In this document: positions 23,403-61,200 of the stretch, piece by piece | Position numbering within the stretch: the first letter of the stretch is position 1 | Layout: each line of letters begins with the position of its first letter | Assembly: GCA_905178155.1 (NCBI GenBank) | Contig: CAJINV010000012.1 | Coordinates: forward strand, 1,112,004-1,176,003 | Direction of reading: 5' to 3' | Origin: Amoebophrya sp. A120 | Taxonomy: Eukaryota; Protista; Dinoflagellata | DNA: 64,000 bases | Made by a program: the position numbers and the translations under genes | Notes under the pieces: generated by a model | Database searches by the model: none | What the model was told of the DNA's origin: nothing | What the model saw: only the letters and a program-made list of their open reading frames with translations

Positions 23403-23817
23403 TCAAGTTAGTTTTAGACACTTCAAGAAGCCACCTGGTTAGAGGCGACCAAACCACGGGGAAAAAAACTTTCTACGAACGCAACTACACGGATGGACGG
23501 ACAGCTAGTACTTCTCGGTACGGCAAGCAAGACGGCTAGCGGCAACCGGAAAAACGGCAAAGTTTGTCGCTCATGAAGCGTATGCCGCTCGATAAAATTT
23601 CTTGTGTACAAAACATTTGCCATGTTGGATGTCATGCAATATTCGATTTTCGAATGGTGTGCTTGTGAGGATCCGCTTGTTCCTGATGTGTTCTCGTCAA
23701 CATCATGAAGTCATGAATTTTCCTTGCAACAATCTACTACAACTGTGACATAATTCTCTGTACAAAAGACTTTTGTTTGTGTTGACCAGATCAACATGAA
23801 AACGACGACATGCTTCT

Positions 23818-28300: not shown

Positions 28301-29404
28301 AGGACGGCATTGCTAGTATTCTTCGGGAGGTCGAGGCGTTGTTTGATTTTACTACTGAAGGCCGCGCTGATCTCTTTCTTGGCCGCCAGCGTGAAGAAGG
28401 GAAAAGTCACCACCGAAATGGAGGTGACTGCAGGATAGGCGAAGGCGTTCATCAACATTATAAGCTGCTTGACTCCCCACCCCGTACAAAAGACTTTTGT
28501 TTGTGTTCACCAGGAGCCTTCCTTCGATCAACATGAAAACGACGACATGCGAGGAAAGGGACAAGGGGAAGGGGCCGCTATGTGGCAGGCCATACAGCTA
28601 CGTACAGGCGCACCGGCCGGGAAGGCCTCGCGGCCCGCCAGGAAGCCGCCGGTTTGTCCTCAGACACGGTGGGGCGCTCCATTTTCTCCGGTTGGGGGCC
28701 CCTCCCAACCGGAAAAAATCGAGCATCCCACCGTGTCTGAGGACGGGCCGGCGGCTTCCCGACGGGCCGTCGAGGCCTTCCCGTGGCGCCTGTTGCTGTT
28801 CTTTTTTCGCCCTTCCCTTCGCATTTTCTGTGGCCTTCAGGTCGGTTCATTCCCCCGCCCCTCTTCCGACCTGACTCAACATCTCGCGACCTTGGGGCAG
28901 ACAAGGGCGGAGGAGTCCTCGTTTGGCCCTCTACTAGCTTTACCCCACACAGAGGGCCGCAATGCTTGGTCCGACATTCGCACGACTTCCCCTCGGCACC
29001 GCTACGGAGCCTGCGCGTCTGTCAAAAAGCGGCGCGTCTGCTTTGAGGGTGCTTGTCGCAAAATAGTCCTCGCGATAGTCGCTAAGCAGCACGCCGGTGG
29101 CCGGACAGCCCAGAAGGCATGCGCGCACAGCCGCGCATAGAAATTCGCGCTGCTCCCGCTGGTGCCACCGAAGGCCGCCAATTGGCACACGGAACGAGGG
29201 CGCGCGCGTCAGGGTAGAAGGGGCACAACCTGAAAAGGCCGGGGCGCTCTTGGGCCGCCCTTTCGTGCTTTTCTGCCCCGTTAGTTGCCGTTTTGTTTTC
29301 ATTTGGTCGGCGTTTAGGAGCCTTTTTCTTTGCTAGGCCGATTTGTTCCTAAGCCTTCCTTCGATCAACATGAAACCGACGACATGCGAGGAAACTGAAC
29401 CTTC
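24579..29404. repeat. Direct duplication 24579-26256 / 27727-29404
   Basis: Identical ORF translations at an offset of 3148. Confidence 0.9.
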
Positions 29405-29764
29405 GTGCCGCTCTTGCGGCAGGCAGGGGTCTCGAAAGATAAAATATTAAGTTTTCTCTGTTGATATCAATTGATATCAAATGATATCAAAAGATATCAC
29501 AGAGAAAGTTGAAAGCAAAACAGAGAAAAGTGTAAACAAGAAACAGAAACATAAACAGAATGAGAAGAAACAAAAACAAACATAAGCAAAAACATAAAGG
29601 ATACACATATAAAAACAAACAGAAATGGCTGCTTGCGCATCACAAACTGCCACTTCTGCACAGAAATACCTGTCGCGGCCTCTGAGTTTTCTCTGTGGCG
29701 AGAGGAGTTTTCTCTGTGATACAGAGAAAACTTCCCTCCCACAGAGAAAAGTCGACCTTTGCCG

Positions 29765-30250
29765 AGGGCCGGCATTTCTACTGGAAATCAGAGTAGAAAC
29801 GCCAGGAGGTCTGGAATTCCTACCGAAAATCCAAGAAGAAGTGCCAGCCTGGCGGAAATCCAGGTAGAAAAAATGCCAGGAGGCCCCCCCCTGGCATTCC
29901 TACCGAAAGTCCAGGTAGGTAGAAACGCCAGGAGGGCTGGCAATTCTACTGGAAATCAAGCTAGAAGCGCAAGCGCCATGGCATTCGTGCCAGAGATCGA
30001 AGATCCCTACAGGAAATTTAAGTAGAAATGCCAGCAGGCCTGGCATTCCTACAGGAAATCGAAGCAGAAATACCAGGAGGTCTGGCATTCCTACAGGGAA
30101 TCCAGGCAGAAATACCACCTCAGCCGGCATTTCTACTGGGAATCAAGGCAGAAATGCAAGGCCCAGCATTTCTACTGAGAGAGAATCAAGGTAGGCAGAA
30201 AGGCCCGAGCCGGCATCCTCGCCCGGAATCCAGGTAGAAATGCCTCGGCC
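29765..30250. repeat. Minisatellite of palindromic ~35-40-bp units
   Basis: About 11 units of GGCATT(T/C)CTACNGGAAATCNAGGTAGAAATGCC. Confidence 0.85.
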
Positions 30251-32291
30251 GGCATTAGGGTACCCGCATCGCGCGCGCAGCGCGCGCGAAGAATTATTTC
30301 GCATGGCCTTCCTTCGATCAACATGAAAACGACGCTCTTTTCACCGCTTCGATTTTCTTCGGGGACTACGCGGCCGACATGTCCTCAGGGGATGGGCAGT
30401 CGATGACGCTGTCTTGGCACGAGCTGGACAAGGGGGGCATGCGGGAATTCCTGAATTTTGATTGGGGAAACCAGCCGTGGAGCGATGCCGTCCTTGTATG
30501 GAACGATGTTCCAAGTGTTTTGGTTTATTGCAATCAGGCACACTAGCCCAGTAGTGCTTGTCGCAATGACGATTTCAATTTTGTAGCAGAAGCCCTGCTA
30601 TAAGCAAACGCGGAGAGAGCTGGTACTGGTAATGAGTCTCATCCAAACATGTTTTCATTCACACAAGAACTCGTAATTTTTGTGCCAGCCGTCTGTTGTG
30701 CACGCGACTGTTGATGACGGTCACTGACACTGTTCCCAAATTGAAGGGTAGTTGCCTTGTTTGCCGCATGCGTTTTGCCAAAACTCCCTTTGCCCTGGTT
30801 GATAAAGGGAAAAGGGCTTGATGTCGCCTGGCACGCCCGCCGTCGGACACACGGGTGTCGTCCAACTCCTGAGCAAAATCGGCAGCGGGCGAATCATCTT
30901 CTCGCATTTCTTTTTTTGTGTCACGTACTTATACTCATGATCCTATTCCTAATCCTTCCTCTCTAATTTCGCTTTTGTTGTACCAGTTCGAATTTTGCAC
31001 ACGCACGCGCGGGTCTGCATGCAGTAATTACTTGCTGACCCGACCGCCGAGCAATTTCTATTTCTACAAGTTGCAGACTCGGTCACAGCTTACTTTGTAA
31101 ACTGACACTCACTCACAGTAACCGACGCTATTATATATGGGATCGTTTCAACGCTTAAAATAAAAAAAATTAATTTTTTGCAATTCAAGGGGTTATATAA
31201 AATGAAAATCATCAGAAGGTGATGCGGGAACTGCCGCCGTCGCGGGCCTCCCAGGTGAACATCTCCGGCTTGTGTTTTGTTCATGGTAATGAAATTTCTA
31301 GACACGTCCCAACTTAAGCTAGTTGAAATGATATGGAAGCTGGAGTCTGTCATCGCGGCAGTAGCAGTTCTAATACCAAGCGCCTTGGTATGGAGAACGT
31401 CGCCAGGGCGATCCGGGCCAGCGGGGAAACTGAACCTTCGTCGTCATGGTGACCTTCGATCAACATGAAAGCGACGACATGCGAGGAAACTGAACCTTCG
31501 TGCCGCTCTTGCGGCGATACATCACCATGACATAAAAAACAACCGTGAAAAATCACGAATCCATTCGAGCAAACAAAAGGAGCCCCTTGCTTTTTCAAGC
31601 AAAGGTGGAACCATGCTGCTACAAGTGCAATAGATTCATGAATTTCTAGATTGAATTATATTGAAACTGAAACCATATTGAAGTAACGAAAAATCATGTT
31701 GATGTAAATGAGCATACTGTGAAGTGAAGCAGCTTGAAACATTCCTCTGTGAATTTTCTGTATCTGTTCGCACAATCAAGCTGCAACATTCTTGAAGCCA
31801 TCATGTGCCCAAAAAAAATTGTAAATAGTATATTGACTTGTTTAAGAAACAACTATGCTGGAAATGGACCAGATTTTGATTTTGTGGCTCGTCTGACTGT
31901 GCATTTTTTCTTACCTTGTGCATGTAAAAACTCGGAGGATGGCACATTCCATATCCAATTCGAGTTGAATTGGAGATAATTGAGGTACTCGTTGCCGTAC
32001 AACTTTATTTGCCTAGAATTGGACTTTTTTTGCGAGTAAGGAGGTGAGTCAGCATTATTTTCATTTTTCCTTCTGCAAGGTAGTTGACTTTCTTTCTAGC
32101 CCGGGGTCGTCGTGACAGACGTGTTGGAGATTTTTCATAGTTTAGGTTTACATGTGAAGAAGAAGTACTAAACGCGGAAAATTTTTAGATGGAAAGTAGA
32201 CCTGAAAATCGTATTCATGGTGTACAACAACTCGTCGTGGTTGTGCTAACGAACAAGCGAGGAAAGAAATCCAGTGTACAATAGCTGTTTT

Positions 32292-42554: not shown

Positions 42555-43251
42555 GGTCAGACTGTGGATGTGGTGGAGTTTTTTTACGAATCAAAATTAT
42601 GGGGCTACTGTACAACTGTGAGAACCAAGTGCTTCTTGGGGAAATAATGTACTGATAGCGCAGAACAATGGGAATGAAACCAAGTTGAGGTCCTGATGTT
42701 CAAGGAAAAGTAGAGAAAGCGACATGTTGCACTACTGTTCGACTGACAGTTTGATGAGGCATAGGCGCCGCGGAAAAAGAATCCGTTTTCGTACGAGGAT
42801 CCGCAAATAAATGCTGTACGAGGGACGATGTGGTCTGAACGAGACTTCTTGTCAGAAGGTTTTATTTCAGTCCTTAACACAGGCTTAGTCAAGCAGGAGC
42901 TATCGATGGACGAAATGAACCGAAATAATGGACGAAATCTTCACACCGATAGTAAAATCCAAATCCTGTCTTCATGCGTTTCCACAAACCGAGAGGATCT
43001 GAGGAGGAGGCACTTACAACTCAAGGACAGACCGATTATTGCTGTGTTGTCTCAAATTCAATTTCATCTTCTAGGGCGGGCTTTTCATCCTGACACTCTA
43101 CCTTGCGGATACGGAAACAAGGAGCTTGTTCCGTGCAATTGCAGACAGAAACAAATGAAATCGACTTCGACAGCAGATACTGACTGGTAGTTACAAAAAA
43201 GAAATTATCAAACTTGTGTCGCAAAAGAAACAAGTAGTTAGAAAACAGAAG

Positions 43252-46200
43252 TCAATACGCATCTCCCCCCGCCGTTTCCGCGTCTGTGATTCCGTTATGC
43301 ATTGCAAAAGTATCGTACTAGTAGTATCGTACTAGTAGAAATAGCATTACAGATTTATTCAGAAGGAAAAATGGAATTTGTAATGCTGAATGAGCTAAGG
43401 GACCAGATTTGTCATGCATGACTGCAATTACTACGAGTACGATAAATATCCCCTCGTACAAAGCACCAACGACGCTCATGAGCAAAAGTCTCTAACTGGT
43501 ACGAAAGGAGAAATGATGTAGGTAGGTGCGTGGAAACCAACTAAACCGACATCAAATGGGAGACACAGTCTGCACAACCGAGAAACACTTTTTGGAAGTC
43601 AACGTGCGTAGAGCGGGCTCCGAGACGGGGATAACACCGATCGAAGTCCGGGGAAGATCGCAAGGTCTGAGTATAACACGCACGAGGACGGTCTACAACG
43701 GCATGCAGAGCTACTAGGTGTCGTAAATGTCGTAGCGTCAGCAACATGGGTGAGGAGAAGCTACGACACAAGTCGGAGTAGCTTAGCGGTGGGAGTACAA
43801 AATACAAAGTCACAAGAGTCTAAAGCCGGTGGTAGAAACAAAGAGAACAGGTAGAGACGAAATGAACGACGTTGGAGCAGTTTCCGCATGTGTATATTTA
43901 TCTTAGCAAATATCCCCTCGTACAAAGCACCAACGACGCTCATGAGCAAAAATCTCTAACTGGTACGAAAGGAGAAATGATGGAGGTAGGTGCGTGGAAA
44001 CCAACTAAACCGACATCAAATGGGAGACACAGTCTGCACAACCGAGAAACACTTTTTGGAAGTCAACGTGCGTAGAGCGGGCTCCGAGACGGGGATAACA
44101 CCGATCGAAGTCCGGGGAAGATCGCAAGGTCTGAGTATAACACGCACGAGGACGGTCTACAACGGCATGCAGAGCTACTAGGTGTCTCATAGTCGCTGGC
44201 TAACGCAGCACAAATGGTTTGATCACGCCAACTGTGACCGGGATCTACGTTGCATATGTGGAACGGGATCAAGATCAAAGAGGAACGACGGAGGGCAGGC
44301 ATATTTCTAGTATCGCCTGCAGTACTCGTGGCCATTTGTGTGACGGTGTTGTGTCATTATGAAAAGTGCAGAAATGTTCACAAAATGATGTACATTCAGC
44401 TCGAAGAGCACAGCACGCTGAAACATGATTTCATTTGTGCAATGCGAGAAGTTTGAAACAAAGCGCGAAACAGGTGAAATGGTGATAGCTCTTTAGTGTG
44501 AAACTTCGCTACCGCTAGCATTGTACAAACTGAAGAAGGACACAACATCCGTGCCGGAAGCAGCATGCGTCTGCGAGACCATGCGGGCTTCCGACTCGTT
44601 CTGGAGGGGACGATGGATCGGCTTGTAGTGTCTCTGGTGGATGTCGTGATCTTCTACTGTAAAATGCGCTTGGGTAGCTGGGTGAAGGTCGAAGCGGTGG
44701 CGGAGATAGAGCTCCGCGTCCACGGAATAGTCGCGCTCCCACTCGGTGGAGTTGGGCGACCAGAGAAACCAACTATTGACCTTTTCCTTGTATGCTGCGT
44801 ACTGGGCGCGCTGCTGGGGTGTGCCGCCCGGTAAATAGCCCAGCATCATGGAGCGCAGGCGTAATGCGATCGCTAGGCCGCGGCGGATTCCATACGGATT
44901 GGTTTTCAGTGTGGCTGCTATGTGCTCCAGGTCACTCCTGGATGCTGGTAGTACGTCGGGAAAGAAGATGCCCGCCGGTAGGTGCACCTGCAGTGTGCAT
45001 CATGATGGTAGTGAAATAAAAGAATGATCTACGTTGCGAATCCGGCCAGAAAGCCAGTTCATCGCTGAGGCTGAATCAAAAAAGGTTGAAGAAGCGTAGG
45101 AGTACCATATTGAGTTCGCCCGGAGACTCGTCAACTTTAACATCCCGCGCATGCGCCATCACATGGCCTGGGATCTTGCTGCTCGGCAGGGCTTTTTGGC
45201 CGGAGATGCTCTCGAAGCTGATGGGCCTCAGGCCGCTCGTCCACCACATGACGAAGATCTTCTGGTGTCTCACGGATAGTTTTGCAGTTTCGGGAAAGGA
45301 GGGCGGGCAGGCTCGGGTGCGTGTGTACTGCCGCTGCATCCTCTTAAGCGTTTCGTACGTTTGCGATTGGCACTGCTGCCTCCACGGCTGTATGAAAGGG
45401 TGAAAAACCGGAGGTGAAGGCAAAGGGAGAGGTGACATTGACAACTTTTGCACTACTACACCTGAGCCTGGGCACAGGATGGAAACGAAAGAGGAAATAT
45501 ACAAACTCATGCAGGTTCATGCGAAGATGGCTCAGCGGGGGTGGGACATAAAACAGAGGCGCACCACCTGGATGCAAGATGAAGATCGCAGCCTACCTCT
45601 CCCTCTGTATTCATATAGATTTTCACTCTGGATAGGCTGCTTGCGCTCCAAACCGTGCAGGCTGCGGAGCCTCTGGCACACGAGGGAGACGCATGCCTTC
45701 ACGTCCTTGTACCCATGCTGGACAAGGTAGTCGGCGAAGTCCAGCACGTCGCTGAACTTGATGTCGGGGTGTGCGTTTTGAATATCCTGCACCTGCTTGG
45801 TGGTCGTCACCGTACGAATGTCAAGGAGCCAATCCTTGTGGTTTTGCGTGAGGCAGTAGTGCGACCAGAGTCGCCAAAAAGCGTTCCGCTGCGCCAAGGT
45901 CTTCGGCGGGTACCACTTCTCTTCTGGCCACACCAGGAAGACAGTGGCGTCGTCTAGTGGGTACTGATCCCGGAAGGACGCCGGCACCAGTGCTGCAGCA
46001 CGGGTGTTGTCGCTCTCGCTGGACCACTTTGGGAAATCAACTCGCACTCCATTGTAGAAGTTGCACTGTCTCCCAGCTGCCTCGCCTATAGGATCCTTAG
46101 GCAACTGCTTTGGCAATTTTGCTGCTGCTCGCTCGTGGTCAAGGAGGGCTAGGCCGTCGGTGAACATTTTTCCTTCAAACAAGCTCTGCCCTGTGCAGAG

Positions 46201-49200
46201 CTAAGATGGTGCAACGCGTGCGCCGCTCAATCCTATCGCGCGGCCTGCTCAGGTCTGCGTGGATCACTTGATTCTACATAAATTATACAACGCGCAACGT
46301 GTCGCGTTTTTTGGAAAAGTTTGTTACAAAACGCGATGGGAAAACAGGTGTCGTGCCAAGTTTAATTTTTACAAGATAAGAACTACTCCAGAAGTAAGTC
46401 GACCATGTTCTCCTCCATTTCTTTCGCAAAAGCTCGGATCTCACTCCAAATCTGCTCATCTGAAAACTGAAAATCTACATTGTAAGTCTTTTGTAAAAGC
46501 TCGAGCAGATCAGTGCGGGTCGTGGCGTCCGCAGGGTTGACAGTAGTGTTGATGTAGCAGTAGTGCCACAGAGTTTGCGGGTTCTTGTGGGCCCAGGCAC
46601 AAAGTGCACTAATTGCACTAGTGCTAACAGCGTTCTTCAATGACCCCGAGCAGATGCCAGCTACTGCGCCTGCATTATCGCAATGCAGCAGCGAGTTTTT
46701 GCCCTCGAGGTGTGTGGCAAAGAGCCGCTGCGCGATCGCAGCAGCCAGAATCTCGTACGTAAGTATGGACCCTCTGCGGAGGATCGGGGGCAGTTGTGAC
46801 TGCTTCGTGTGAAGCGAGAAGCCAACTGTCCGCTGCTTGTGCTGGAAGAGAGTGGCGCCAATGGCCACCTCGTCCCGCTTGAAGCTGGCGTCGCTCATAA
46901 CATGGGCACGCTCCCGGATCATTCCCAGCCTGACGATGTCTGTGGTGTCTCGTAGCTGGATGATTTTCTTGACCTTGTTCAGAATGATGCACAAGCTCTG
47001 CCGTGTGGTGGGCTGCGCTACTAGGCGGAAAAAATCTTTCTCCGAGGCGGTAAGCCGGTACAAGTGCTGCAGGATCGGGATGCCACGCCGGAACTTCCGG
47101 CTGTGCATCACATGGATCAAAAGCCCCTGCATGCGCTGGAGGTTTTTGAATGTGCAAAAATTCCGGCACTTGTCGGCGGCGAAGGTGGCCACTAGCTTGT
47201 CACACTCCTCCGAGATCCGCGCGACCTTCTTTTCCGGGACGTAAAGCGAGATCTTCGCGGCGGTTTTGTGGCAGGCGATGCCCAGCAGCTCGCAGGTCTC
47301 ACCCGTGCGGCAAGTTTCGTGCTTTTCCGGTGCTATGGCCACGCCGATGGTGGCGAGGAAGCGCCGGAATGCTGCCTCGTCCACTGGGATCAATTCGTCT
47401 GAACCGACGTACATGATATCATCCACATACACAAAGCAAGGAATCCGCAAAACTTTGTTGACGTAGTGGGACACCAATTCCGACACTGTTCCACAGAATC
47501 CGTAGATACTGTGAACATTGCCGAAGTTCAGGGCGAAAAGCTTGCCGAAGACCATCTTCTTCTTGAAGGGGTCGAATATCTGAAACTTGTTCAGCTCCGG
47601 ACGCTTCACGGCGCATTGGAAATACGCTTGAAACAAGTCGTCTTTTGCAATCGCGGGGAGAAAGCTGTGACCTTTAAAGTCCGGCTTCGGCTTTGGCAAC
47701 GCCTTCACATGCTTCCAGGTGTACTTCTCGTTGTACTTCCGCGCGATCTGCCTACCCTTCGCGATGGACTGGCTGACATCGGCGCGGTCCTGCCAGAAGG
47801 CGTCGGAGTACTCGGGGTTGGCGCAGTATGCGACTCCCTCGATAATTTCCGGCAACCCCGGCAAACTCATCTTCTCGCTTTGCGGTGACAGGTGGTCATT
47901 GACCGGGCCGTCGTTGGAGATCGGCCGGACCTTCGCGAACGCTCCGGTCTCGTCGTTGAGACGCTGGCCAAGGCCGAAGATACTGGAAAACCAGTCGCCT
48001 CGGCTCTTGGCTTCCGCCAACTCCTCCGGCGTTAGCTCGACGGCCAGACCGGCGTCAATGAGCTTTGAGTACGCTGTGAAGCTGCGCTGCTGCACATCTT
48101 CGGTCTCGAAGGACCTGGATGTGCAGTGGGCCAATATGACATGTAGTCGCGCTAGAAGAAAACCTCGCAAGAAGGCTAGAAAATGGAACTTGCTCAGGCG
48201 TAAAACAGAAAAGGAGAAAAGTATAAGAATACCACGGCCCCGACCGTATCTTGGCAAAAGACTGCAGACCTGCATGTCGCTCGGGGTCGTAGAAGTCGAA
48301 CTGGGTGAGGGTTTTCATGTACTCAGGCGAGAGGGGCTTGGCGTTTTCCCATGCTTTGAACACAGGGACGCGCCCCCGCGTCAGGAAGCCCGTGTTGATG
48401 AAACCCGAGGCCCCGAAGGCTCGCCTCCTCGACCACTTGTCCCCGAAATTGGCGTCGCGCGCGGCGAGTAGCATCGCCATCGCGTCGCACTCTCGAGTTG
48501 GAAACAGTGGGTCCTTCCCGATGTACATCGCGTTCACCCTGCGCACGTGGTCGGGCTTTGCCTTCGTGTACAAATCTCGCAGCTCTGTGCTCAGCTGCAC
48601 CCTGCGATCGAAATCGGACAGGACGCGATCTAGCCGCGCGGTTTCGTCGCTCACCGCCGTGCTGGCGGGCAAAGCGTCGACGCCCCGGAGGTGGTCGATC
48701 GCATCTTTTTTGAACTGGGGCAATTTTGGCATTTTCGAGGGGGGGGCGAAAGCAAAAAAGGAGAAGGGCTTGCTGCTACACTAACACTACTGTCGCTGCT
48801 ATGCCACGATGGAAATTCTCGAAAATACTAGTTCTTTACTGAGAGCGGAATGTCGAGTACAAAAGTCAAGCCGTGCTAGTTACGAAAACGAAGCGTGCTC
48901 CTTACGAGTAGAACTTCCCCATGTTCATGCACTGTGACTGCTGTGCGCGACTTAGCCAACCCCCACGACAGGCTACTCTGCTGTGCTCTGACCCGTCTAC
49001 TGACACAGAAAAATCTCCCGTATGTGTAAATAGTAGGACGAGAACTTCGTAGAGCGAGCCCCACCGAGAACGCTTGTAGCGCAGCGAGAGTCGAGAATGC
49101 GAGATGCTTCAAGGCGTTGCACCGCTATCACAATCAGAGAGGAGACTAGAGCAAGCCCGGGCATTTAGCTCGAGCCTGGGCACCTGAATCGCTTTCAATT

Positions 49201-52200
49201 CCCTGCGTTGCATCTTGCTTATCGCTACTGTGATCAGCACAAGGCGATCCGGTAGGGTCGTTGCCAATTCGCTTGCTCCGTCGAGGTCGTACAAACAAGC
49301 GCTCCGGTGCGTTCGCTAAAAACTGTCTTCCGATCGCGATCGGAAAAAATAGAGTCGGTGTGATTTCTGGTCCGAAAAATAATACAAATCGATAGCCATT
49401 CGGCAGCGTCTTAATGCAGAGAAAACTCGAAGAATCGTAGTCGAACGTGAGCGATTCATGCTGGCTGCTACAACATCGGTCTTTGCCGCAAAGGTAGTGT
49501 GGGTGGTAGTCAAATTTTAAAGATTAATTCTCATCGACAAGAGCGAATGCGTGTCACAAACTAGGGAGCGAAAGATCTATAAGCGAGCTACGGCGGGTGC
49601 TGTTCATGCTTTCCGCCTTTCTTCCCTTTCTCGCCCTTCGTCTTCCCGTCGCCCTTGCTGGCCTTTTTTCCCGCGCCTTTCTTCCCGGCGGGGGCGGGCG
49701 GGTTGGTCCACTGGGAGATGTCGACCGTGGCGTTGAAATTTTCCGTGTGGTACTTGGTGCTTGCGGGGTGGCCGCCATTATCACGCTCGCACTTGTCGCC
49801 CCATTTGCAGTACATCACGTCGTCGCTCCCGGGCAGGCGGAAGCCGCACAATCCGCCGCAGAACAGGGTGCAGATGGTGGCGTTCTTCCGGATCGTTTCC
49901 ACTTCCGTGCAGTACGCTGCCGCGAGGCCCGGCCGGGTGAAGGAGAGGGCGGCTGCGAAGCCGGTCTCCGTGCCCCTCCCCGCTCCCGGGGTATAACCTG
50001 TGGCTATTTTGTGAATACAGAAAGAGATGCGTGATTTTTAAGCGTAAACGGCCGTCAGTAGAAAATCTGCAAAAACATGTGCAAAAACTAGGAAAACGCC
50101 CCCGCGTATGTGATCGGGATCGATGGTTTCTAGGCGTAAACGGCTACCGAAATTGAACAGCAAACTACAAGGGAATAGCTAAAAAGCTGCACCAGTCGGC
50201 GCACCCGCCGCGGCGGCTGTGTGCGTGGCTGTCGGTGCTGCTGTGGCCGAAGCGCCACCAGTGGTAGCGGAGGTAGTGCTAGTGTTGGTCGATCCAGTCC
50301 AACCGCCACCACCCCCCGCACCTTTCGTCGTCGCCGCCTGCTTTGGGGCCGGTTTGCTGATCTGGTAACCAAAAGTCCCGTCCTTCTCCTGTACCTTGCG
50401 CAGCTCCGCATGTGCGGTTCTGTCGAACGGCCGGACATCATCAGCAAGGCCCGCAATGGCCTTGACAAACTCCTTGGTGGAAATTTGCGGACTATTCGCC
50501 TCCGTGGCTATGCAGAGTTCGGCGTAGAGCAGGATCAGGTGCGGGAGAGAGCAGTCGGATTTCTCCCCGGTGAACTTCTTCAGCGTCTTCTGGTCGCTGA
50601 GCCGCTGTCGCAGGCTCGTGTACTTGTCCAGTGCGCTGCTTTTCCAAAGAGACGTCCCGGCGAACGGGATAAGCAGGAACAGTTCCGGGAGGTTGTGCTT
50701 GCACAGGAGTTTGTTCACATTTGTCAAGTCGCCGTGCTGCACATCGGATCCATGCATGGTGCTGAAGGATCGGCATTCTTCGAAGATCTTCTTCACCAGC
50801 ACCTTGATCTCCAGAAATTTCACACCGGGGAAAAGTCGCTGCGTTTGCGCGTTCAGTGCGCCCCGGCCGATAAGGACCACCTGGTGGAATTCATCGATTG
50901 TTTTTGCGGTGCGCGGCCATCCGAAAGGAACGAGCAGGTCGGACTTGGAAACTTTCTTGCTGACGTTCGCGCAAAAGTCGTCGAAACTGGGCTCGTCGAA
51001 GAGGTTGCTCATCAGGCAGAGGACCATGTCCTGCACAAAGTTCGTCTTTTCCAGGGTGGAAACTTTGCTACTGTATCTGCCAAGCACACCCTGCGACAGG
51101 ATGGCGCCGCAGATTGGGTTCCCGAGGTCCTTGCCGACGTACGTAGTGCCCTTCCGGGCGCACTCCGCGGCTGCTTCGAACTCCGGCTGTACCTCTTCGC
51201 AGAGGAAGCAGAAAAACCTGCGTGCGTAAAACAAGAGATATTGTTGGGTGGAAGAACCGGAAATGCAAACGAGCTCATAAGTGGGTGGCCTGACAAATGT
51301 GTAGCATAGAGGAGACGGAGCAAAAGAAATATACGACGGGTTCGGGCGTCCCTTGTTGTTCACCAGCAGGCTGCCCCAATGCTTCAGCGGTGGGTTGTAT
51401 CCGGCTGGTGCCCTGGAGAAGTACTTGGTGAGGTAATCGTCGTCGTCTATCCACTGCTGTAGCCCTTCTTTCGAGCGCGGCTGGAAGTTCGAGCGCATGA
51501 CCTGGCCGGTACTCAGGTTGACCAGTGCGAAGGTCCCGGCGGATGCTGGTAGCTGCTGCTGCTGCTGCTGGGCCCCCGCCTGCTGCAGCATGCCGATGCC
51601 CTGGTATGACGCGTCCGCCAGGAGTCCCATGGGGTTTGCCTGGGCTGGCTCGGCGGCTGCTGTCACATCGGGTTTGACCGCGTTGGCTCGGCGGAGCTTC
51701 CGCAGCGCTAGACGGTCTGCTTGCGATTGGAGGCCACCTGGAGGACAAAAATTGCATCAATGAATTATATATCCAGGGAAGCTTACGCATACGCTGTGCT
51801 GTGAAATGCTAGCGCAGAAAAGACGAAATAGGAAGCACGTGTAACTGTGTACAGTTCTGCAACCCAAAGTGCTTCCCGCGCACCGCTCCTGAGGAGTCGG
51901 AAGATGCTCCGCCGCTGCTAGGCGGGGAGGCCACGCGCGCCCTTTTGTTTACGTTCTGCTGTGGTGAGGCGGGCATCGGTGGGTGTCCCATGATCGGCTG
52001 CGCGGCGCTGGTGTCCGTGTCGCCTCGCGCTTTCAAGTCTTCCTTCTTCTTCTTTACAAAGTCGTCCATGTGCTCGCGAGCTGCTTGCACTTCGTTCGCC
52101 GAACAGCTTTTGAACGGCCAGTCACGCGGAGCGGCGACTGGTTGCTGCTGCTGTGCTGCTTGCTGCAGGTTCTCGGGCTGCTGGGGCGGCGCCGAGGAGG

Positions 52201-55200
52201 AGGACGCGGCCGGAGCCGCTACTGTGGCATTAGCTTTCGCCTGTGCCACCTGGCGCTTCGCTTCCAGATCCGCGATGGGGTTGGAATCCAGTAACTGCTT
52301 GGCGAAGGCGGCGGTGAACGGGTGCAAATTTTCGAGGTTAAGCCTCCGGTCGTGGTGCAGCATCTTCAGCGCGATGTTGCAGCGCATGAACGTGAGCACG
52401 AGTCCGTAGGTTCCGACATCGGAGTAGTTGCCGCCGCAGAACTGGAAGGCCTGGCGGACCGGCGTTGGCCACTGTGCCAGGGCCCGCTCGAGTGGCGACC
52501 GGAACCACTTGTACATGATGATCACGGTGCGAACATGGTGGAAGATGTTCCCCAGCCCGCCTGGAAAGAGGGTGAGAAACTCGAAGACGTCGTCCTTGGT
52601 GTCGTTGGCAATCGAGCTGAGGCCGTCCGCGTGCGCCACAGTCGACAAAGCGAAAACGCCGTGCAGAATCTTGGCCAGGATGCTGCCAACTCCGTCCGGC
52701 TTCTTGGGGTCCATGCAGGACCGGTCGGCCCGCAGTTTCTGGGTGATTTCCGCGAAGATGGACTGTGGTCGTGTTTTCTAATCATCAATGCCAAATTAAT
52801 TCACGAGCACCCTGTTAGTGACCAAGTACTGCAGTTCTTCCGTTTACCATGCTGATCTTGCAGCAGCATCGTGCAAAGCTAATTTTCATGCATATCTTCC
52901 GCATGATCACACGGGTACAAAAATGTATAAGATGCGTAGGAATAAAACTGCAGTCGGGTAATCATCAAAGCCACGTACCTTGCTCTGCGCGCGCTTTGTC
53001 CACTTCGTGCTCGTGGGGTCCATCAGCTGCTGCTGCACTTCTTTGTACATTTCCTGCACCCGGGCCAGGTCGAAGGACTCGCCGGGCGGCACGATGTCAA
53101 AAGGGGCGAAGAGCTTGTTCTCCAGCACTGACTTAAGCGCGGCGAGTTGCTGCGCGTTTTCCTGTGCGGATTTTTGCAGCGCCAGCTGGCTCACGTCGCC
53201 GGGAAACAGTTTGCTGGGCGAGGGGTCGCCAATTCCGGGCAGGTTGGACCCGCCCCCGTGTGGGGAACCCGGCTGCGACGGCATCGTCTACGTAGTGCGT
53301 GTAAAACTGGTAGTACGCCTGGTGGAGGTCAGGCCGCGGAGCCAAAAACATTGGCGCGGCTGAGAACCATCGGTGATAAGATGGATCGAAATGGCTAGAA
53401 GTAGTAAAGGTAAGTATTCGAACTGCAACATGGGCACAGGTGTGCGCGGTATCTCTCGAGGCTGGGCGACGAGAGTACAACTACGCTCACGGGTGTCGCT
53501 CGCGGTGGACGAGAGTGAAGACGTGCGACCCGGTCGAAAAAACTCTCTCGATGACGGCAGAGGAACTGAAAAGTGATCTAACGACCCTGACCAAACCGAA
53601 GTAGAACAACAACTGGCGCAGTTCTAGCAGGTGCCAAAAGTGCTGCTGGTGCGGAGGGCGCGCGTCGTGAGCGCGCGGCGAGTACACGGAAAACCTACTG
53701 AGACAGTCTATGGAGTCGAACAACCGGACAAAACACAGTTCTAGCACGTGTAAAAAGTGCTGGAAAAGGGGAGGGAGGGGGGACAGGGTGCCAGGGGTGA
53801 ACACACGTGTGGCGGGAACACAAGGTAGGAGAACACACGGTGCTATGACTATGGGGGTGCGGAAGCACTGCCAAAGCCAGTAGCACTGGAGGGGAAAAAG
53901 AGATCATATGTCGCAAGGAATAAGGGAGAAAACCACGTGGCAAGAAGCTCAGCCTTCTGTGGGCTGGCTTAGTGGGTACAGCGCCCTAGCTGTCCCGAAT
54001 GAAACTTGCAGTGGGAGAATAGGTGCATGTGAGTAGTGCAGTGGAATAAAGTGCACGAGGTGTGTGGCACCAAGCGCAGACGGCCCCTGAGGTTTTTCAT
54101 CCATTAGACAGACAAGTGACAGCTACCACGAAGTGGTAACCCAACCGGTCAATGAGTCCTCGACTCTAAAGACACAGGCAGGTATCCATCGTCCCCTCCA
54201 GAACGAATGTCATAGCATGCACCAGATCACATCGGCAGTCCGCAGGGAGCGGACCGCAGAATCTAGACCCGGTGCGTGCTAAAGGATGCGACAAAATACA
54301 AAGTCACAAGAGTCTAAAGCCGGTGGTAGAAACAAAGAGAACAGGTAGAGACGAAATGAACGACGTTGGAGCAGTTTCCGCATGTGTATATTTATCTTAG
54401 CACTTTTGCATTGCATATCCGTATTTTTCCAACAACTTTTTCCGTTCCTGCTCCAACACGTACTGGCAGTTCGCCTCCACGATGTTCTGCGTATCAAATG
54501 CAAATATGTCTGGGTCCTCCAGAAGATTGCGAGATTTGTGATGCAGTTTTTCCAAGCTCCACCAAGTCTGGAATGCAGGGTCTAGCATCACAGGTACTGC
54601 AGCCCCTTGCCCTTGGCCGTGAACGTGATTCCTCCGTTGCATGAGAAATAACACCCTCCGAGCAGGCCCAGGAGACGTGGGCATCTCTTGTTCTTGCGAG
54701 TTATGAAATACAAGATTTTTGTATGCTCCGCAACACGCATCACAAGTTCGTATCCTTCCAGACCCAGACATAGTTGCAGTTGATACTGCACCTTCTTCCG
54801 CAATTTCACGGATCTGAAGTCCTTCAACGCAAACAGCCTTTTGTTCTCGTCCTTCACTCTTCTCAGCCTTTCCGCTATTCTCTTCTGCTTTTGCTTCTCC
54901 TCTAGAAGCTTCTCGTCCATGGTCAGCATCGATTGCCGGTTCTGCTCTTCGATGCGCAGCTTCAGTTGCGAAATTACTGCTTCCAAGTCCTTGTTCAGCT
55001 GCACGATTTTGTCGTGCTCTTCCAGCAGAACCGCGGTCTTCCGCGCGTCCGCCTTGTAGGAGTCTAGAACCACTACAACGTTGTCCATTTCTTCCTGCCA
55101 GGCGGTTCGCTGTTCGGTGTGCTTCACCCGCAACTTCCCCATCTGGGTCTCAATTTTTAGTTTCTCTTCGTTCAAAAATTCCATTTGCCGCCCCTTGTTC

Positions 55201-58200
55201 TGGATCTTTATCGTGAAGTCTTTCTCAATCTGGACGATCTTCTGCTTCTCTAGATCCACTTCAGATTATCAATTGCAAAAATGTCTGGGTCTGGAAGGAT
55301 GCAAGGTCTGTCATGCTTGTCTGACATGACTGAAGAGTTTGCGATGCGTGTCCAAGAAGAGACCCTCTTGCTTGTCATGCAAAACGCAGCTTGTCATGCG
55401 GAAAGCGCAACACGAAGCCGCGCAAAAATCTCTCATGTTGGCTGCGCATTACAGAAAATTCACCATTCAAAAATCAGCATTACAAGTTTCCAGACCCAGA
55501 CATATTTGCATTTCATACAGTTTCCTTCTGCTTCAAATCCGCGCTCCACTTCATGTGCTCCTTTTTGTATGACAGTGCACCGCTCCTCCTCCCCCTCATT
55601 TGTATAGCATGAACGGCAATACAAGCATCAGCAAGAATGCCGGTTTTGCATGACAAGTTTGCACTGGATTGTAGTTCTATTTGGACTACCAGAACTTGTC
55701 ATGCAAACAGTGCCAAGAAGCAAAGGGTGGATTCTGTATTTTGCATGACAAATGAGGGGGACACGGGGAGTTGTGCGCTGTCATATCTTGTACTCAAGCT
55801 TGAAAAACTCGTACTCGCTTTCGATTTGCTCCTTCTGTTCCTGCATGACTTGCTCGTTGTTTAGCGCTTTCCGGACTTTTAAGTTCAAACCGGTGACCAA
55901 ATCCTCGTGCTTTTGTCGGATTTCGTTCAAGATTAATTGGTGTTTGTTCTTCTCCTCCACCATGTCATGTTCGTATTTCTCATCTTTCTCCTTCACAACC
56001 TGCTGCAAATCTTCCACCTTTTCGTCCCGTTTTTCGGCCAGGTAGTCCTGCGACTCGATAAACTCTTGCAGCTCCTTCTTCAGGTCGTCCCTCTCGGTTG
56101 TCAAAGTTTTGATGATGCGGTCCAGCTCTTCCTTGTGCAGGTAGAGTTTCACGTAGTTCGCGTCTAAATCCTCGTACAAGAGATGTTCCCTCTCCCGGGT
56201 GAGAATCTTCTCGTTCGTCATCGTATCCACAGTATCCACATGATTTCTGTAGTCCTCCCAGATTTGCGAGTACAAGTCCTCCTTCCAGTGCGAGTCCCTC
56301 TCAAACTGCAACAGCTTCGCATCTTCGTAATTCTCTACTAACCTACGCCGCTGCGAGAGGATGTCCTCGATCTGGTAATTTTTCCTTTCCAGTTCGAGGA
56401 GCTTCTCCTCCTCGTTCGTTTGGATTAACCGATGTCGATGCGACAAGTAATCCTCGTAGCCCATGTTGAAGTTTTCGCGCGCGAGAACCAGTATTACAAT
56501 GAAAAATGCCCGCAGCACCCCCGAACTTGGCAGCGTTAGAACATGCAAACCTTTCCAATAGAAACACTCCCGTCTTGCATATATCAGCATCACAAATTTT
56601 CCATGCTGAATATCTCAAATCTGTGTTGCAAAGGAGCCCAGCAGTAGCCGGATCTGTCATGCAAAAGATACGTTCCGCAGCCAGATTCTGCATCAGCAAG
56701 GCTCGTAGTCCTTTCATGCATAGATAAAAAGTTCTTCGTTTGAAAACCTTATGCATGAGAAACTTTTGCAAAATCCGGGTTGAGGGCATTTTTCATTTTA
56801 ATAACCCGTCTTTCTTCTTTATCCATTTCAAAATTCTCCACCATCCGCACCTCCTATCCAACGGAAAAATCCCCCCTCCCCATATCGAAGTGGAAATCTG
56901 TGATGCAGGATTTGAGGTACCAAATCGAGTTGTCATGCTAGAAGGCCAAGAGCCGCAGTCGTGGTCTCGTTTGCAGGCAATTTGTCATGCTGTTTCCCAC
57001 TCTCAGCTGCCTCCTATCATGCTGAAGATGCAAGGCTCCCCCACGCCACCCAGCACTACAGTCCGCATCTTTTCCCGTGTAGCATGACAAAGCTGATTTG
57101 TGACAACAAATCTGCATCACAGATTTCCGTTTTGATATGGAGGGGGGGATTTTTCCTCTCAATACCTCCTGCGCGATCCCCTCTTCGATCAGCATGTTTT
57201 GTCGTTCGCGGTTCCATATCCAGTGCAAAAGCGTCCTGTCGTACTAGTATGAATTGCATCACAAATCTCCTCAGCATGAGTAATGCTGATTGTGATTTGC
57301 CATTAGATCGAGAATTGTAAAAATGCTTGACTGCGATTAGTACGAGTACGCTGCTTTTGCAGTGCATATTCCAGGCGACCTCCGTTGTCCAGCGGAGCTC
57401 CCATTTGACTTGCTGGTTTCGCTATTGAACAAAAAAGTTCATTTGGTAGCGGTAGCGATCTTACTACTCGCACTCGCGTTCTTGCAAGACAAACAGTCGC
57501 CGACATGCACGGTATGCAATACAAATTCCGGTCGTAGTTTTTGCCTTGCCGGACAGCAAGAGAAATTTCGCTAAAGCTAGAAAAACTTTATGTTGGTGTG
57601 ATATTCGCCAATCTTCCTTCATCATCTCTTGCTGTTCCCGGTTTCTTTCCAATTCCAGCATCGCTTTCTGCAACTCCTGGTCCAGAAACTCCGCTTCTTT
57701 CGTTTTCTGCTCGATCATCAACTGCAAATCTTGCTCCAAATCCACCGTTATCCAATGCAAAAGTATCGTACTCGTAGTTAGTAATTGCAAGCATGCAATA
57801 CAAATTAATATATTTATATAAGGCAAACTTTGGGGCCGGAGAGGGTCCGATAGAGGTTGGGGAGAGGTTTCGTAGAGGTTAGACAGAGGGTCGGAGAGGT
57901 AAAGTAGAGGGTCGACCAAAACAAGAGGGTCGGGGAGAGGTAAAGTGAGAGGGTACGGAGAGGGTCGGGAGAGGGTGCGCAGTATAGGGGACCGTATAGC
58001 GGCGCTATACGCCCGAAGAGGGTGCGTAGAGGTTGAGTAGAGGTCAAGTAGAGGGTAGGGGGAGAGGGTCGAGAGGGTCAGAGAGGTTCCACAGTATAGG
58101 GCGACCCTCTAAGCGACCCTCTATGTCGACCCTCTCCGGGAACCTCTTTTTTACCTCTCGGCGGACCCTCTCGGGACCTCTTGGACCCTCTCCCGGACCC

Positions 58201-61200
58201 TCTTCGCGACCCTCTCCGAACCTTTCCCGGACCCTCTCCGAACCTCTCCCGGACCCTCTCCGGGACCCTCTCCCGGACCCTCTACCAGAACCGCCCGCAC
58301 AGTGAAGCTCGCCCGTCTGCGCGCAGTGCCTGTGTCCTAGAGTAAGAATAAACAAAGCTAGGGCCTAAAAGTTCAGGCCTCCCCTGCAAGTTTTTCTTTT
58401 TTGACTCCAGGGCAGACCAGGGCGGCTGTTCAAAGTGCATGCGCCGCTCTGCGTCCCCCGGGGGGGGCGCGGCGCCACGCCTTAACGTAGGCGGCCACCT
58501 AGGGTGGCCGCAACTTCACACAGTGCCCGCGCGCGGGCAGCAGGTGTTGCGTCTTTGTAGCGGCGCGAAAGTGGTTGCGACTAAAGTAGCGACAGCTTTT
58601 CTCTGCCCGTTGTCTCTCGGCGCAAGCATAGCGCATTAGCCTTCGCAAGCACATGCAGGCCCCGCCGCGTGCTCGCTGCCTAACAGGATTCCAGCTCGCC
58701 ACCTTGTAGAAGCGGCACTCCCCCTGTTCAGGGTGCACCCCTGCAACCAACTCCCCTTCCAAGAAAGGCCAACAACCCCCGGCCCCGGGCGCTGCTTTTT
58801 TCGCCAACAAAGAACGCAGGCCGCGGAGGTATCGCTGCCTGCGTGTGTGCGCTGCGCTTTCTGGGCCAACCCCGTCAGACCGGCGCGGCCCCGCCTGCTT
58901 TTTTGGCTGTGCAGCGGCGCGCCACCCTTGGCATCGCCTTCCCCGTTGGAACACCTCCTCCGAACAGCCTCCCTCCCCGGCGGCCTCCGCCGGGGGGTGG
59001 CTGGTCTCTCTCTTAAGGCAAATCAGCATTACAAATTTCATTTCTCATGCTGAGCAAATTTGTAATGCATTTATACGAGTACGATACTTTTGCAATGCAT
59101 AACCGTGTTCGCCCGAAAACTCGTCATGGTGGCGTCCAAGGTTGTGTGCTGGTCGGTTAGCGTGGACAGTTGCTGATTCAACTCTTCGATCTCCTTCTGC
59201 TTCGCCTCTCGCAGATCCACCAGCTCCTGCTGCAGTTTTCCCTGTTCGTCTATTAATTGATTTTTCTCCGCTACAAGCGATTCCACTTCCGAGGTAAGCT
59301 TCTCCACCTGAAGAACCCCCTCGTCGTGCCGGGTCTGCATATGAACTGCAAAAGTATCGCACTCGTAGTAATTGCGGTCATGCATTACAAATTTTCTTTT
59401 TAAGGTAAATCCGCATCACAAATTCCATTTCGCATGCTGAGGAAATTCAAATAATTTGTAATGCATTTATACGAGTACGATGCTTTTGCATTTCATACTG
59501 CAGATCGGCGTGCAATTGCTGGAGATTTTCCAATTCCGCTTTGACGTTCTTGTTTTCGTTCTGAACGACGAGGGTGGTCGCGGACAAGAGTTCTTTTTCT
59601 TGGTTTAAATTTTCGATTTTTTCCTCCAAGTCGTTTTTTGTCTTCTCCAACTCCTCTTCAACTTTCTTTTTCTCTTCGATTAAGTTGTCCCTTTCCTTGG
59701 TGTATGAACTGCAAAAGCATCGCACTCGTATAAAAAATGCATTACCAATTTCCTCAGCATGAGAAATGCAATTTGTAATGCGGATTTACCTTAGCAAAAG
59801 GATTTGTAATGCATGATTGCAATACGAGTACGATACTTTTGCACAGGATATGGTGACGGCCTGTTCGCGCTTTTCCGCCTCTTCCTTCTCGCTTTTCGCC
59901 CTCTTCATTTCTGGCTCGAACTCCTCCCATTTTTTCTGCAGTTCCTCGTTCTTCTCCTTCAATTTCTCCACTTCCCCCTGCAGTTTTTCCGTCTGCTTCT
60001 CCGCCGCTTCCTTTTCCCGTATAAAAACCCGCTCAGGTGTCACTAATATCTCAAGCGTTACAATAGAATCTGGAAATCTGTGATACAAGAAGTGCATGAG
60101 CTAACCCGCTCACGCAGGATTGCGCATGACAAGTTTCGGAGCCCCAAACCGCACTGGAATCATCTGCCGGAATTTGTGTTGCAGAAAGTGGAACGCGCTG
60201 CCGCGATTCTGTCATGTACAGCATGCAAGACAAACTCCAGATTCTATTGTAACGTTTGAAAAAATTGTAACATCGGAGCAAGCCATATCCCGGACGGCGG
60301 TCTTTTTCTCGTCCTCGAGGGTTTTCAGTTCTTTATCCTTCTCTTTTATTTTCTCCTCCAGTTCGTCATTGGTTTTTTCCAACTTTTCTCGTTTCTCCAC
60401 GTGCTTTTGCACGTCTTCCTCCAATATCAAGTGCCAATATGTCTGGGTCTGGAAGAGTCATGCTGCTTTTGCATGACAGCGAAGGTCTGGCATGGAAGCT
60501 CTAGCATCACAGATTTCGAGAAGCTTCCGCAATGCCGACTCCGCATGACAAATGCCCCATTTTGGTGACAAGAAGCGGGCAGCTTTTGCTGCCTATGCAT
60601 GAGAGATTTTTTTATGTGTTGTGAAATGCGCATCACAAGTTTGCATTTTTCCAGACCCAGACATATTTGCGATGCATATCCAAATCCGTGATTTTTCGCT
60701 CTAAATCCTTTTGCACCTTCTCCGCCTCCTTTGCAACTTTCTCTGCAGCGTCTTTTTCCTTTTTCATTTCGGCCATTTCTTCCTTGTTTTTCTTCTTCTC
60801 CTCCTTCATCTCCTCGACCTCCTTTTCTTGCTTTATGCAGAGCAAAAGAGTGCTGTGCTGTGTAAGCGTACTTAACATGCAGAAGCAGATGGTGCAGGTG
60901 CACATCAACAGCGCAGTAAATAATTTTGTCTGAATGTTGAAAGGTGCTATGCTCAGCGACAGAGAGATGTCTGTTCAGACTGACACGCAGTATTCGGCAC
61001 AAGAACATCATTCAATACGCGATTATTTTTAAGCACTTCTCTTTCACTCTGGATACTTTTTTCCATTTTGTCATTTGCCTTTTTCAAATCGTCCTCCGCA
61101 TTTTCCTTTTCCGTCTGCAGATTGTCCTTGTCTTTCTTGAGCTGCTTTATCAAATGCAAATATGTCTGGGTCTGGAAACTTGTGATGCTAAAATGTGGAT

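What the first reader, a model, noticed from the sequence alone, without database searches (positions are those of the whole stretch)
43444..54401. Intron-rich tyrosine-recombinase retrotransposon: about 7 spliceosomal introns across gag, RT and YR
Seen: a complete element with RT (YVDD), RNase H and YR. Its ORFs are joined by GT-AG introns that I checked for frame: 52978-52778 (or 52763), 51334-51218 (117 nt, stop-free), 50192-49998, 48232-48115 (118 nt) and 45105-44988 (118 nt). Two more have clear acceptors (51738, 45388) but uncertain donors. The terminal repeats are nearly identical (A identical; B has 2 differences in 279 bp), so the intron-containing form transposed recently. Established: retrotransposition normally purges introns; the main exceptions are Penelope-like elements, and I recall only isolated introns in DIRS-group elements. 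Inference: this element selectively copies unspliced RNA while making all its proteins from spliced mRNA, or it can also move as DNA through its YR.
Basis: partly seen in the sequence, partly recalled or inferred. Interest (0 to 1): 0.9.

Follow-up and report, generated by a model that had tools for sequence, protein, structure and literature searches.

The report
Retrotransposon that keeps seven introns
A young jumping gene in the marine parasite Amoebophrya has seven introns splitting all three of its genes, four of them seen cut out in RNA-like sequencing data, so it likely copies itself from unspliced RNA, although copying through RNA normally erases introns.

Summary
Confirmed, with corrections. 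The 10,959-bp minus-strand element has split direct repeats (A, genes, B-A-spacer-B), a gag-like gene, RT/RNase H and a tyrosine recombinase. Database proteins label the host Amoebophrya sp. A120.

Seven introns: four are skipped exactly in RNA-like contigs, one more matches the public annotation, the RT intron is supported by homology (17 of 18 relatives), and one has only its donor supported. Intron 6 is not GT-AG; it is a 249-nt hairpin with a 5-nt direct repeat, resembling an old introner.

The element looks single-copy and sits inside a high-copy introner, while its own introns show no sister copies, so they predate this insertion. A relative with about 39% RT identity carries three predicted introns at other positions.

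Best reading (0.62, inferred): proteins come from spliced, gene-sized mRNAs, and only unspliced full-length RNA is reverse-transcribed. Main rival (0.2): movement as DNA. I found no intron-rich element of this order in print (10 searches). This scan noted similar elements in other genomes.

The parts
54291..54402 (-). A1 repeat (5' end of element), identical to A2; the first T is shared with the target site
52979..53284 (-). gag-like exon 1 (ATG at 53284, inferred start)
   Evidence: RNA-like contig piece 52979-53495 in X3
52763..52978 (-). intron i1, GT-AG, 216 nt (or 201 nt with acceptor 52778); acceptor unresolved
   Evidence: donor edge; both acceptors keep the frame; retention stops gag at aa 125
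51853..52762 (-). gag-like exon 2
   Evidence: its 3' part is in P0162
51738..51852 (-). intron i2, GT-AG, 115 nt
   Evidence: junction present in annotated protein P0162; X3 contig starts at 51737
51335..51737 (-). gag-like exon 3
51218..51334 (-). intron i3, GT-AG, 117 nt, stop-free in frame
   Evidence: skipped in X3 record 12; P0162
50193..51217 (-). gag-like exon 4 (weak similarity to AT5.2 family proteins, E 5e-7)
49998..50192 (-). intron i4, GT-AG, 195 nt
   Evidence: skipped in X4 record 17; P0162
49588..49997 (-). gag-like exon 5 with a Cys/His cluster and stop (predicted protein 1017 aa)
48233..48732 (-). RT exon 1
48115..48232 (-). intron i5, GT-AG, 118 nt, frameshifting if kept; supported by homology only
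   Evidence: no RNA depth in this region
46383..48114 (-). RT/RNase H exon 2 (YVDD; protein 743 aa; no methylase domain found)
45637..46167 (-). tyrosine recombinase exon 1
45388..45636 (-). intron i6, non-canonical (CC..AG or equivalent), 249 nt, 5-nt boundary direct repeat, long terminal hairpin: introner-like
   Evidence: skipped in X4 record 15; placements; 41 terminal pairs, 0 of 100 shuffles as high; P0161
45106..45387 (-). tyrosine recombinase exon 2 (first catalytic Arg motif, conserved Lys)
44988..45105 (-). intron i7, GT-AG, 118 nt
   Evidence: skipped in X3 record 10 and X4 record 15; P0161
44493..44987 (-). tyrosine recombinase exon 3 (Y-x-x-R in place of H-x-x-R, conserved Trp and Tyr; protein 435 aa)
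43908..44186 (-). B1 repeat; holds a 15-nt motif (43959-43973) shared exactly with the 3' region of relative L001
43797..43908 (-). A2 repeat
43723..43796 (-). unique 74-nt spacer between A2 and B2 with a predicted hairpin
43444..43722 (-). B2 repeat (3' end of element)
54403..54417 (-). left piece of the host introner's 5' inverted repeat, into which the element inserted without a target-site duplication
43294..43443 (-). remainder of the host introner (high-copy family; 5-nt direct repeat at its ends, in the last coding stretch of a host ORF)

Best explanation
This is an intact, recently inserted split-direct-repeat tyrosine-recombinase retrotransposon whose three genes are interrupted by seven introns, and it likely passes them on by reverse-transcribing its unspliced full-length RNA while making its proteins from spliced mRNAs.

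Shown: the repeats, the three genes, splicing at four junctions, a single intron-bearing DNA form, and insertion into an introner without target duplication. Predicted from sequence: introns at other positions in a relative.

Inferred steps: (1) gag, RT and YR are made from separate gene-sized spliced mRNAs, each lacking at least one end of the element; (2) only the unprocessed A1-to-B2 transcript carries both ends needed to rebuild a B|A junction, so it is the productive template; (3) the cDNA is circularised and inserted by the recombinase; (4) because introns survive copying, the family gains and loses them like host genes, including by introner insertion (i6).
For: Repeats: A identical, B 277 of 279, in the A1-ORFs-B1A2B2 layout that defines Ngaro retrotransposons (PMC8547959 section 11). 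RT and RNase H catalytic residues are intact and conserved in relatives at 34-40% identity, so reverse transcription is likely still selected.

Introns predate this insertion: in DNA-like run X1 one unbroken 10,164-nt contig spans all seven at depth 44, against 42.6-46.8 for four single-locus records and thousands for the flanking introners. No intron has a significant match elsewhere in the window (best E 0.013).

Relative L001 (RT 39% over 712 aligned residues, YR 33%) has three GT-AG segments whose removal restores both reading frames; 0 of 3 share a position with the window's three RT/YR introns. It is the sister row in the RT tree (99/97).

Coverage in X3/X4 forms separate blocks over gag and over YR, with zero depth from 46356 to 48390, which fits gene-sized mRNAs. 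X3 bin depths leave unexplained coverage in the two bins holding i6 (17.7 seen vs 13.8 expected; 6.7 vs 5.3), while X4 leaves none; this hints that intron-retaining RNA exists.

Precedent: tagged DIRS-1 yields some unspliced cDNA (PMC7192593 passages), and plant Copia elements keep an unspliced full-length RNA beside a spliced Gag mRNA (PMC5580714 abstract).
Against: Only one copy is seen at 88% identity or more; a recent copy-and-paste event should leave a donor unless it segregated away. No RNA contig covers RT, and no full-length unspliced transcript was seen. Contigs cannot show RNA starts, ends, strand or level, and drop rare variants. X3 and X4 are one sample and are only guessed to be RNA. 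The A120 annotation was transcript-based and may rest on the same RNA, so it is not independent. In the DIRS-1 assay a marker intron is normally removed in new copies. L001 introns are predicted from sequence only. The intron status of the 19 AT5.2 gene models is unknown, since no DNA was available. Raw-read run X8 held 1 read on the stretch and gave no information.
Confidence: 0.62

Rival explanations
1. The element mostly moves as DNA: its recombinase excises it as a circle and reinserts it, Crypton-like, so introns are never exposed to splicing. Reverse transcription is rare or serves mainly to refresh the repeats.
For: Single copy with no donor. YR contigs are the deepest of the three genes (depth 22 vs 3-8 for gag and 0 for RT). 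No target-site duplication; only one T is shared at the junctions.
Against: DNA-only movement would not keep A1 and A2 identical 10.5 kb apart, nor keep RT/RNase H intact across a family diverged to 34-40% identity. Any RT round on spliced RNA would still remove introns. The ends are not permuted, although two equivalent B|A junctions would exist in an excised circle (inference; one copy only).
Confidence: 0.2
2. Mixed templates with turnover: both spliced and unspliced RNAs are copied, introns are lost now and then, and the very high intron-gain rate of this host refills them. There is no strict selection for unspliced RNA.
For: 0 of 3 intron positions shared with L001. The host gains introns massively (PMC7789003). 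i6 looks like an introner insertion.
Against: All seven introns lack sister copies at 88% or more, so none is a fresh gain; seven old introns surviving frequent spliced-template copying is unlikely. No intronless DNA form shows in X1 contigs, though rare variants would be dropped.
Confidence: 0.11
3. An old immobile or domesticated copy that gained introns in place, with its repeats kept alike by gene conversion.
For: Single copy; expressed and spliced; annotated as ordinary genes.
Against: It sits inside an introner whose family has many copies at 88% or more, so the insertion is younger than the introns appear to be. The junctions are crisp, all three ORFs are intact, and L001 shows predicted introns in a second lineage.
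Confidence: 0.07

Closest known systems
Ngaro retrotransposons (DIRS order), e.g. Cafeteria burkhardae Ngaro (PMC8547959, section 11 read)
   Same: A1-[gag, RT/RNase H, YR]-B1A2B2 layout, same gene order, no methylase found, insertion into another mobile element.
   Different: Seven introns across all three genes; about 11 kb rather than about 6 kb; ORFs separated by 855- and 215-nt spacers; a 74-nt spacer between A2 and B2; Y-x-x-R instead of H-x-x-R. The passages read report no introns in Ngaros.
PAT-like elements and SymbioDIRS of Symbiodinium (PMC7192593 introduction; PMC5890265 passages)
   Same: Split direct repeats, RT plus YR; SymbioDIRS also occur in dinoflagellates.
   Different: No methyltransferase domain here. 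SymbioDIRS were annotated with intronless gene models.
Penelope-like elements (PMC8557442 passages)
   Same: Retroelements that retain spliceosomal introns after retrotransposition.
   Different: Different RT clade and a GIY-YIG nuclease; most of their ORFs are uninterrupted and the shared intron is in the 5' UTR. Here every coding gene needs splicing.
Plant Ty1/Copia splicing (PMC5580714 abstract) and retroviral env splicing (recalled)
   Same: Unspliced full-length RNA is kept beside a spliced subgenomic mRNA.
   Different: There the spliced-out region is coding and the unspliced RNA itself encodes Pol. Here unspliced RNA cannot encode full-length RT, YR or Gag (6 of 7 introns truncate the protein when kept).
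Amoebophrya introner elements (PMC7789003, section 3 part 3 read)
   Same: i6 has a 5-nt boundary direct repeat, terminal pairing, a non-canonical end and a length near the 240-nt A120 average.
   Different: No repeated copies were seen, and it lacks the TAT...AAA inverted-repeat motif of A120 families; it would be a degenerate singleton.
Cryptons / Glomhoppers (PMC13465315 passages)
   Same: Tyrosine recombinase, introns in the gene, no true target-site duplication.
   Different: DNA transposons without RT, gag or split direct repeats.

Membership tests
Ngaro (DIRS order) | Split direct repeats A1...B1A2B2 | tested here: met
   with an extra 74-nt spacer between A2 and B2
Ngaro (DIRS order) | gag, RT/RNase H, YR in that order | tested here: met
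   gag is assigned by position, a Cys/His cluster and weak family similarity, with no Pfam hit
Ngaro (DIRS order) | No methyltransferase after RNase H | tested here: met
   RT ORF ends about 47 aa after the last RNase H Asp; no methylase hit
Ngaro (DIRS order) | YR with H-x-x-R and catalytic Tyr | tested here: inconclusive
   Arg, Lys, Arg, Trp and Tyr are conserved. His is replaced by Tyr here, in L001 and in three AT5.2 models read; His stands in P0003, P0004 and P0141
Ngaro (DIRS order) | RT groups with reference Ngaro elements in a tree | not testable with these tools
   No labelled Ngaro, PAT, DIRS or VIPER references were available; the tree shows only an Amoebophrya-rich clade (100/99) among unlabelled hits
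PAT-like (DIRS order) | Split direct repeats | tested here: met
PAT-like (DIRS order) | Methyltransferase domain | tested here: not met
DIRS1-like | Inverted terminal repeats with internal complementary region | tested here: not met
   no inverted pair at the element's ends among the 12 pairs listed
Crypton | YR only, no reverse transcriptase | tested here: not met
   intact RT/RNase H
Penelope-like elements | GIY-YIG nuclease or none, no YR | tested here: not met
   YR present; no GIY-YIG hit
Amoebophrya introner (intron i6) | 3-5 nt direct repeat at the boundaries | tested here: met
   5 nt; L001 has the same five letters once at the aligned site
Amoebophrya introner (intron i6) | Terminal inverted repeat or hairpin | tested here: met
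   41 pairs between the first and last quarter, 0 of 100 shuffles as high; imperfect; overall folding z only -1.75
Amoebophrya introner (intron i6) | Repeated copies elsewhere in the genome | tested here: not met
   no depth excess in X1 at 88%; no significant hit in the window; older, more diverged copies not tested

The most novel reading that the evidence does not exclude
A family of tyrosine-recombinase retrotransposons in Amoebophrya has fully separated its coding RNA from its genomic RNA: every protein needs host splicing, including the host's non-canonical introner splicing, while only never-spliced RNA is copied. The element therefore evolves introns like a host gene, targets introners as safe landing sites, and can carry introner-derived introns to new loci. 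It may also switch to DNA excision and reinsertion through its separately expressed recombinase.
Probability: 0.35. Interest if true: 0.88.

Novelty: new variant of a known kind. Interest (0 to 1): 0.74.

Why it matters
Loss of introns is the standard signature of retrotransposition and the basis of the usual reporter assay, including for DIRS-1. Penelope-like elements are described as highly unusual for keeping introns. An element that needs seven splicing events to make its proteins, yet hands all seven introns on, must sort RNAs between translation and copying, or have a DNA route. It gives a natural built-in reporter: PCR on extrachromosomal DNA across any intron tells the routes apart. 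It also means that ORF-based TE annotation misses such elements. Here gag and YR are in the public annotation as unnamed proteins.

Tried and rejected
No whole genome was held, so a genome-wide BLAST for copies was not possible; copy number rests on per-contig depth in one run, which the tool warns is a rough guide.

No listed holder is on record as RNA. Raw-read run X8 laid 1 read, so X9 and X10 were not used. The first lay included flanking introners, which filled the joints table (15 rows shown, 228 hidden; 24 pieces shown, 9633 hidden). A second, element-only lay gave no result, so i1's acceptor and i5 remain without RNA evidence.

Searches for relatives with DNA context: viral contigs 0 of 4 stretches, genome contigs 0 of 64, metagenome contigs 1 of 284. 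The YR alignment had no usable seed. Pfam found nothing for YR or gag, the PDB sequence search gave 0, and Rfam gave 0 matches, so no known ribozyme. The single-sequence fold was useless (pLDDT 35). The protein atlas did not answer.

Rejected: that the introns are copies of one another. 4 of 45 pairs reached p<=0.05 with low scores, about chance level. Rejected: GT donors for i6, since the observed skip allows none, although minor isoforms using internal GT sites cannot be excluded. Rejected: private insertions or frameshifts, given exact splicing and identity with annotated proteins.

Literature: 10 searches found no report of an intron-rich DIRS-order element. The word 'intron' occurs 0 times in five DIRS-order surveys. 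The Poulter and Goodwin papers (subscription journals) were not read; I recall that they mention single introns in some vertebrate DIRS elements, unverified. Only 1 supplement file of PMC7789003 was held as text (0 hits); its figures on repeats could not be seen.
Full report
Anatomy. The element occupies 43444-54402 on the minus strand. Repeat A (112 nt) is identical at both places and repeat B (279 nt) differs at 2 positions. The order is A1, genes, B1, A2, a unique 74-nt spacer, B2. Three genes follow in order: a gag-like gene (predicted 1017 aa), RT/RNase H (743 aa) and a tyrosine recombinase (435 aa). RT has only a weak Pfam hit but clear family conservation of YVDD and the RNase H acidic residues. 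The recombinase has no profile hit; a 13-row alignment gave a model of mean pLDDT 71.6 whose best structural matches are Cre and other tyrosine recombinases (best E 1.4e-3).

Host and site. The window is full of short inverted-repeat elements interrupting genes. Their ends fit the A120 introner motif described in PMC7789003 (section 3 part 3). Two database proteins identical to the window's exons are labelled Amoebophrya sp. A120. The element interrupts the 5' inverted repeat of one introner; the intact motif occurs at 5 places in the window, one being the other arm of the same introner. There is no target-site duplication; one T is shared by the left, internal and right junctions.

Are the introns real? 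I laid 4 of the 10 listed runs. DNA-like run X1 holds one contig of 10,164 nt with all seven introns and no differences. Runs X3 and X4 (one sample, guessed to be RNA) hold contigs that skip 118, 249, 117 and 195 nt; these skips equal i7, i6, i3 and i4. They behave as RNA: coverage is uneven, and host exon pieces end at introner borders within longer contigs. My spliced recombinase is letter for letter the annotated protein P0161, and P0162 is an exact suffix of my gag model, covering i2, i3 and i4. That annotation was built from transcripts and may not be independent of X3/X4. The RT intron i5 has no RNA cover, but its removal aligns without gaps in 17 of the 18 relatives (of 21 tried) that align there; the two recombinase junctions are gapless in 9 of 9 and 11 of 11. 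For i1 only the donor edge is supported. Keeping any one intron truncates the protein in 6 of 7 cases.

Correction. i6 cannot be placed as GT-AG (6 equivalent placements). It has a 5-nt boundary direct repeat and 41 base pairs joining its ends, against a shuffle mean of 8.1 (0 of 100 as high); the other six introns show no such pairing (21-100 of 100). The relative L001 has the five repeated letters once at the aligned site. It therefore looks like a decayed introner insertion, spliced by the host's non-canonical route (inference).

Are the introns older than the insertion? The long contig has depth 44; four single-locus records have 42.6-46.8; A and B have 77 and 67. The element thus looks single-copy at 88% identity or more. 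The flanking introners reach summed depths in the tens of thousands, while bins holding the introns stay at 44-54 (one bin with a CAG run reaches 140). An intron gained after the repeats were last made alike (2 differences in 391 nt) should still have near-identical relatives; none shows. So the introns came in with the element (inference). Contigs drop rare variants, so rare intronless DNA is not excluded.

Is it a family trait? One metagenome contig, L001, encodes RT and recombinase at 39% and 33% identity. It has three GT-AG segments of 99, 113 and 121 nt whose removal restores both frames, and it lacks all three of the window's RT/recombinase introns; the nearest pair is about 7 codons apart. 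In a tree of 35 rows (the window, 9 close and 25 distant hits chosen by hand from 160 proteins) the family is one clade (100/99) and L001's protein is the window's sister (99/97). A 15-nt motif in B is shared exactly with L001's 3' region (0 of 1000 shuffles as long), a candidate replication signal.

Mechanism. Split direct repeats and a conserved RT point to replication through RNA (PMC8547959 section 11; PMC7192593 introduction; repeat regeneration in Ngaro/PAT is recalled). In DIRS-1 a marker intron is removed in new copies, although some unspliced cDNA forms (passages). For seven old introns to persist, the productive template must be unspliced. Coverage suggests why: gag contigs reach into the spacer before RT, recombinase contigs begin near 46260-46269, and nothing covers 46356-48390. 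If spliced mRNAs are gene-sized, none holds both ends. Contigs cannot prove starts or ends, so this step is inferred. The DNA route is the main rival: one copy, no donor, recombinase deepest, RT unseen. It does not by itself explain identical A repeats or RT conservation.

Comparison. The architecture is Ngaro-like, but membership by phylogeny could not be tested, and the H-x-x-R motif reads Y-x-x-R. Penelope-like elements are the known intron-retaining retroelements, mostly with uninterrupted ORFs (PMC8557442 passages). Copia elements keep an unspliced genomic RNA, but that RNA encodes Pol (PMC5580714 abstract and outline). Ten searches found no intron-rich DIRS-order element in the held library. 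I also saw passages of PMC12130899, PMC12477816, PMC5718144, PMC5890265 and PMC13465315, and word counts for PMC6681497, PMC3266345, PMC3783388, 10.1101/2021.08.05.455354 and PMC2685390. Single introns in some vertebrate DIRS elements are recalled from papers I could not read. Earlier notes of this scan describe intron-rich elements of this order in three other genomes; I did not check them and take no support from them.

Verdict. It is a new variant of a known kind, with RNA-level support, a non-canonical introner-like intron inside the recombinase, and predicted intron turnover in the family. The copying route is inferred and directly testable. Interest 0.74.

Noticed in passing
window 43100-43913: RNA-like depth is highest over A2/spacer/B2 (78-86), and a 2900-nt X3 contig of depth 34 starts at 43443 and runs through the unspliced introner remainder downstream, while upstream host exons have depth 4-11. 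The 3' repeats may drive transcription into the neighbouring cyclic-nucleotide-binding gene (Pfam hit).
   Followed up: no
window 43723-43796: Unique spacer between A2 and B2 folds into a 10-bp stem; part of it resembles sequence just after A1. Role unknown.
   Followed up: partly
window 43959-43973 and 43495-43509; L001 3779-3793: Exact 15-nt motif shared between repeat B and the 3' region of a relative with about 39% RT identity; candidate priming or recombination signal.
   Followed up: partly
window 43294-43330: The 3' arm of the host introner carries a tandem duplication of about 14 nt not seen in the intact copies near 59100-59850.
   Followed up: no
window 1100-63900: At least two abundant introner families interrupt host genes throughout the window (15 copies in family D2); known for this genus (PMC7789003).
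   Followed up: partly
window 23700-31500: Near-identical duplicated segments 3148 nt apart (24576 and 27724), a 63-nt motif repeated six times, 42-nt tandem units near 29765-30159 and low-complexity ORFs; may be another mobile element.
   Followed up: no
window 57800-59050: A GC-rich insert with 12-nt tandem repeats (58169-58297) appears to lie inside another copy of the same introner family, a second case of nesting in this introner.
   Followed up: no
window 51218-51334: Intron i3 is in frame and stop-free, so retention would add 39 residues to the gag-like protein instead of truncating it.
   Followed up: partly
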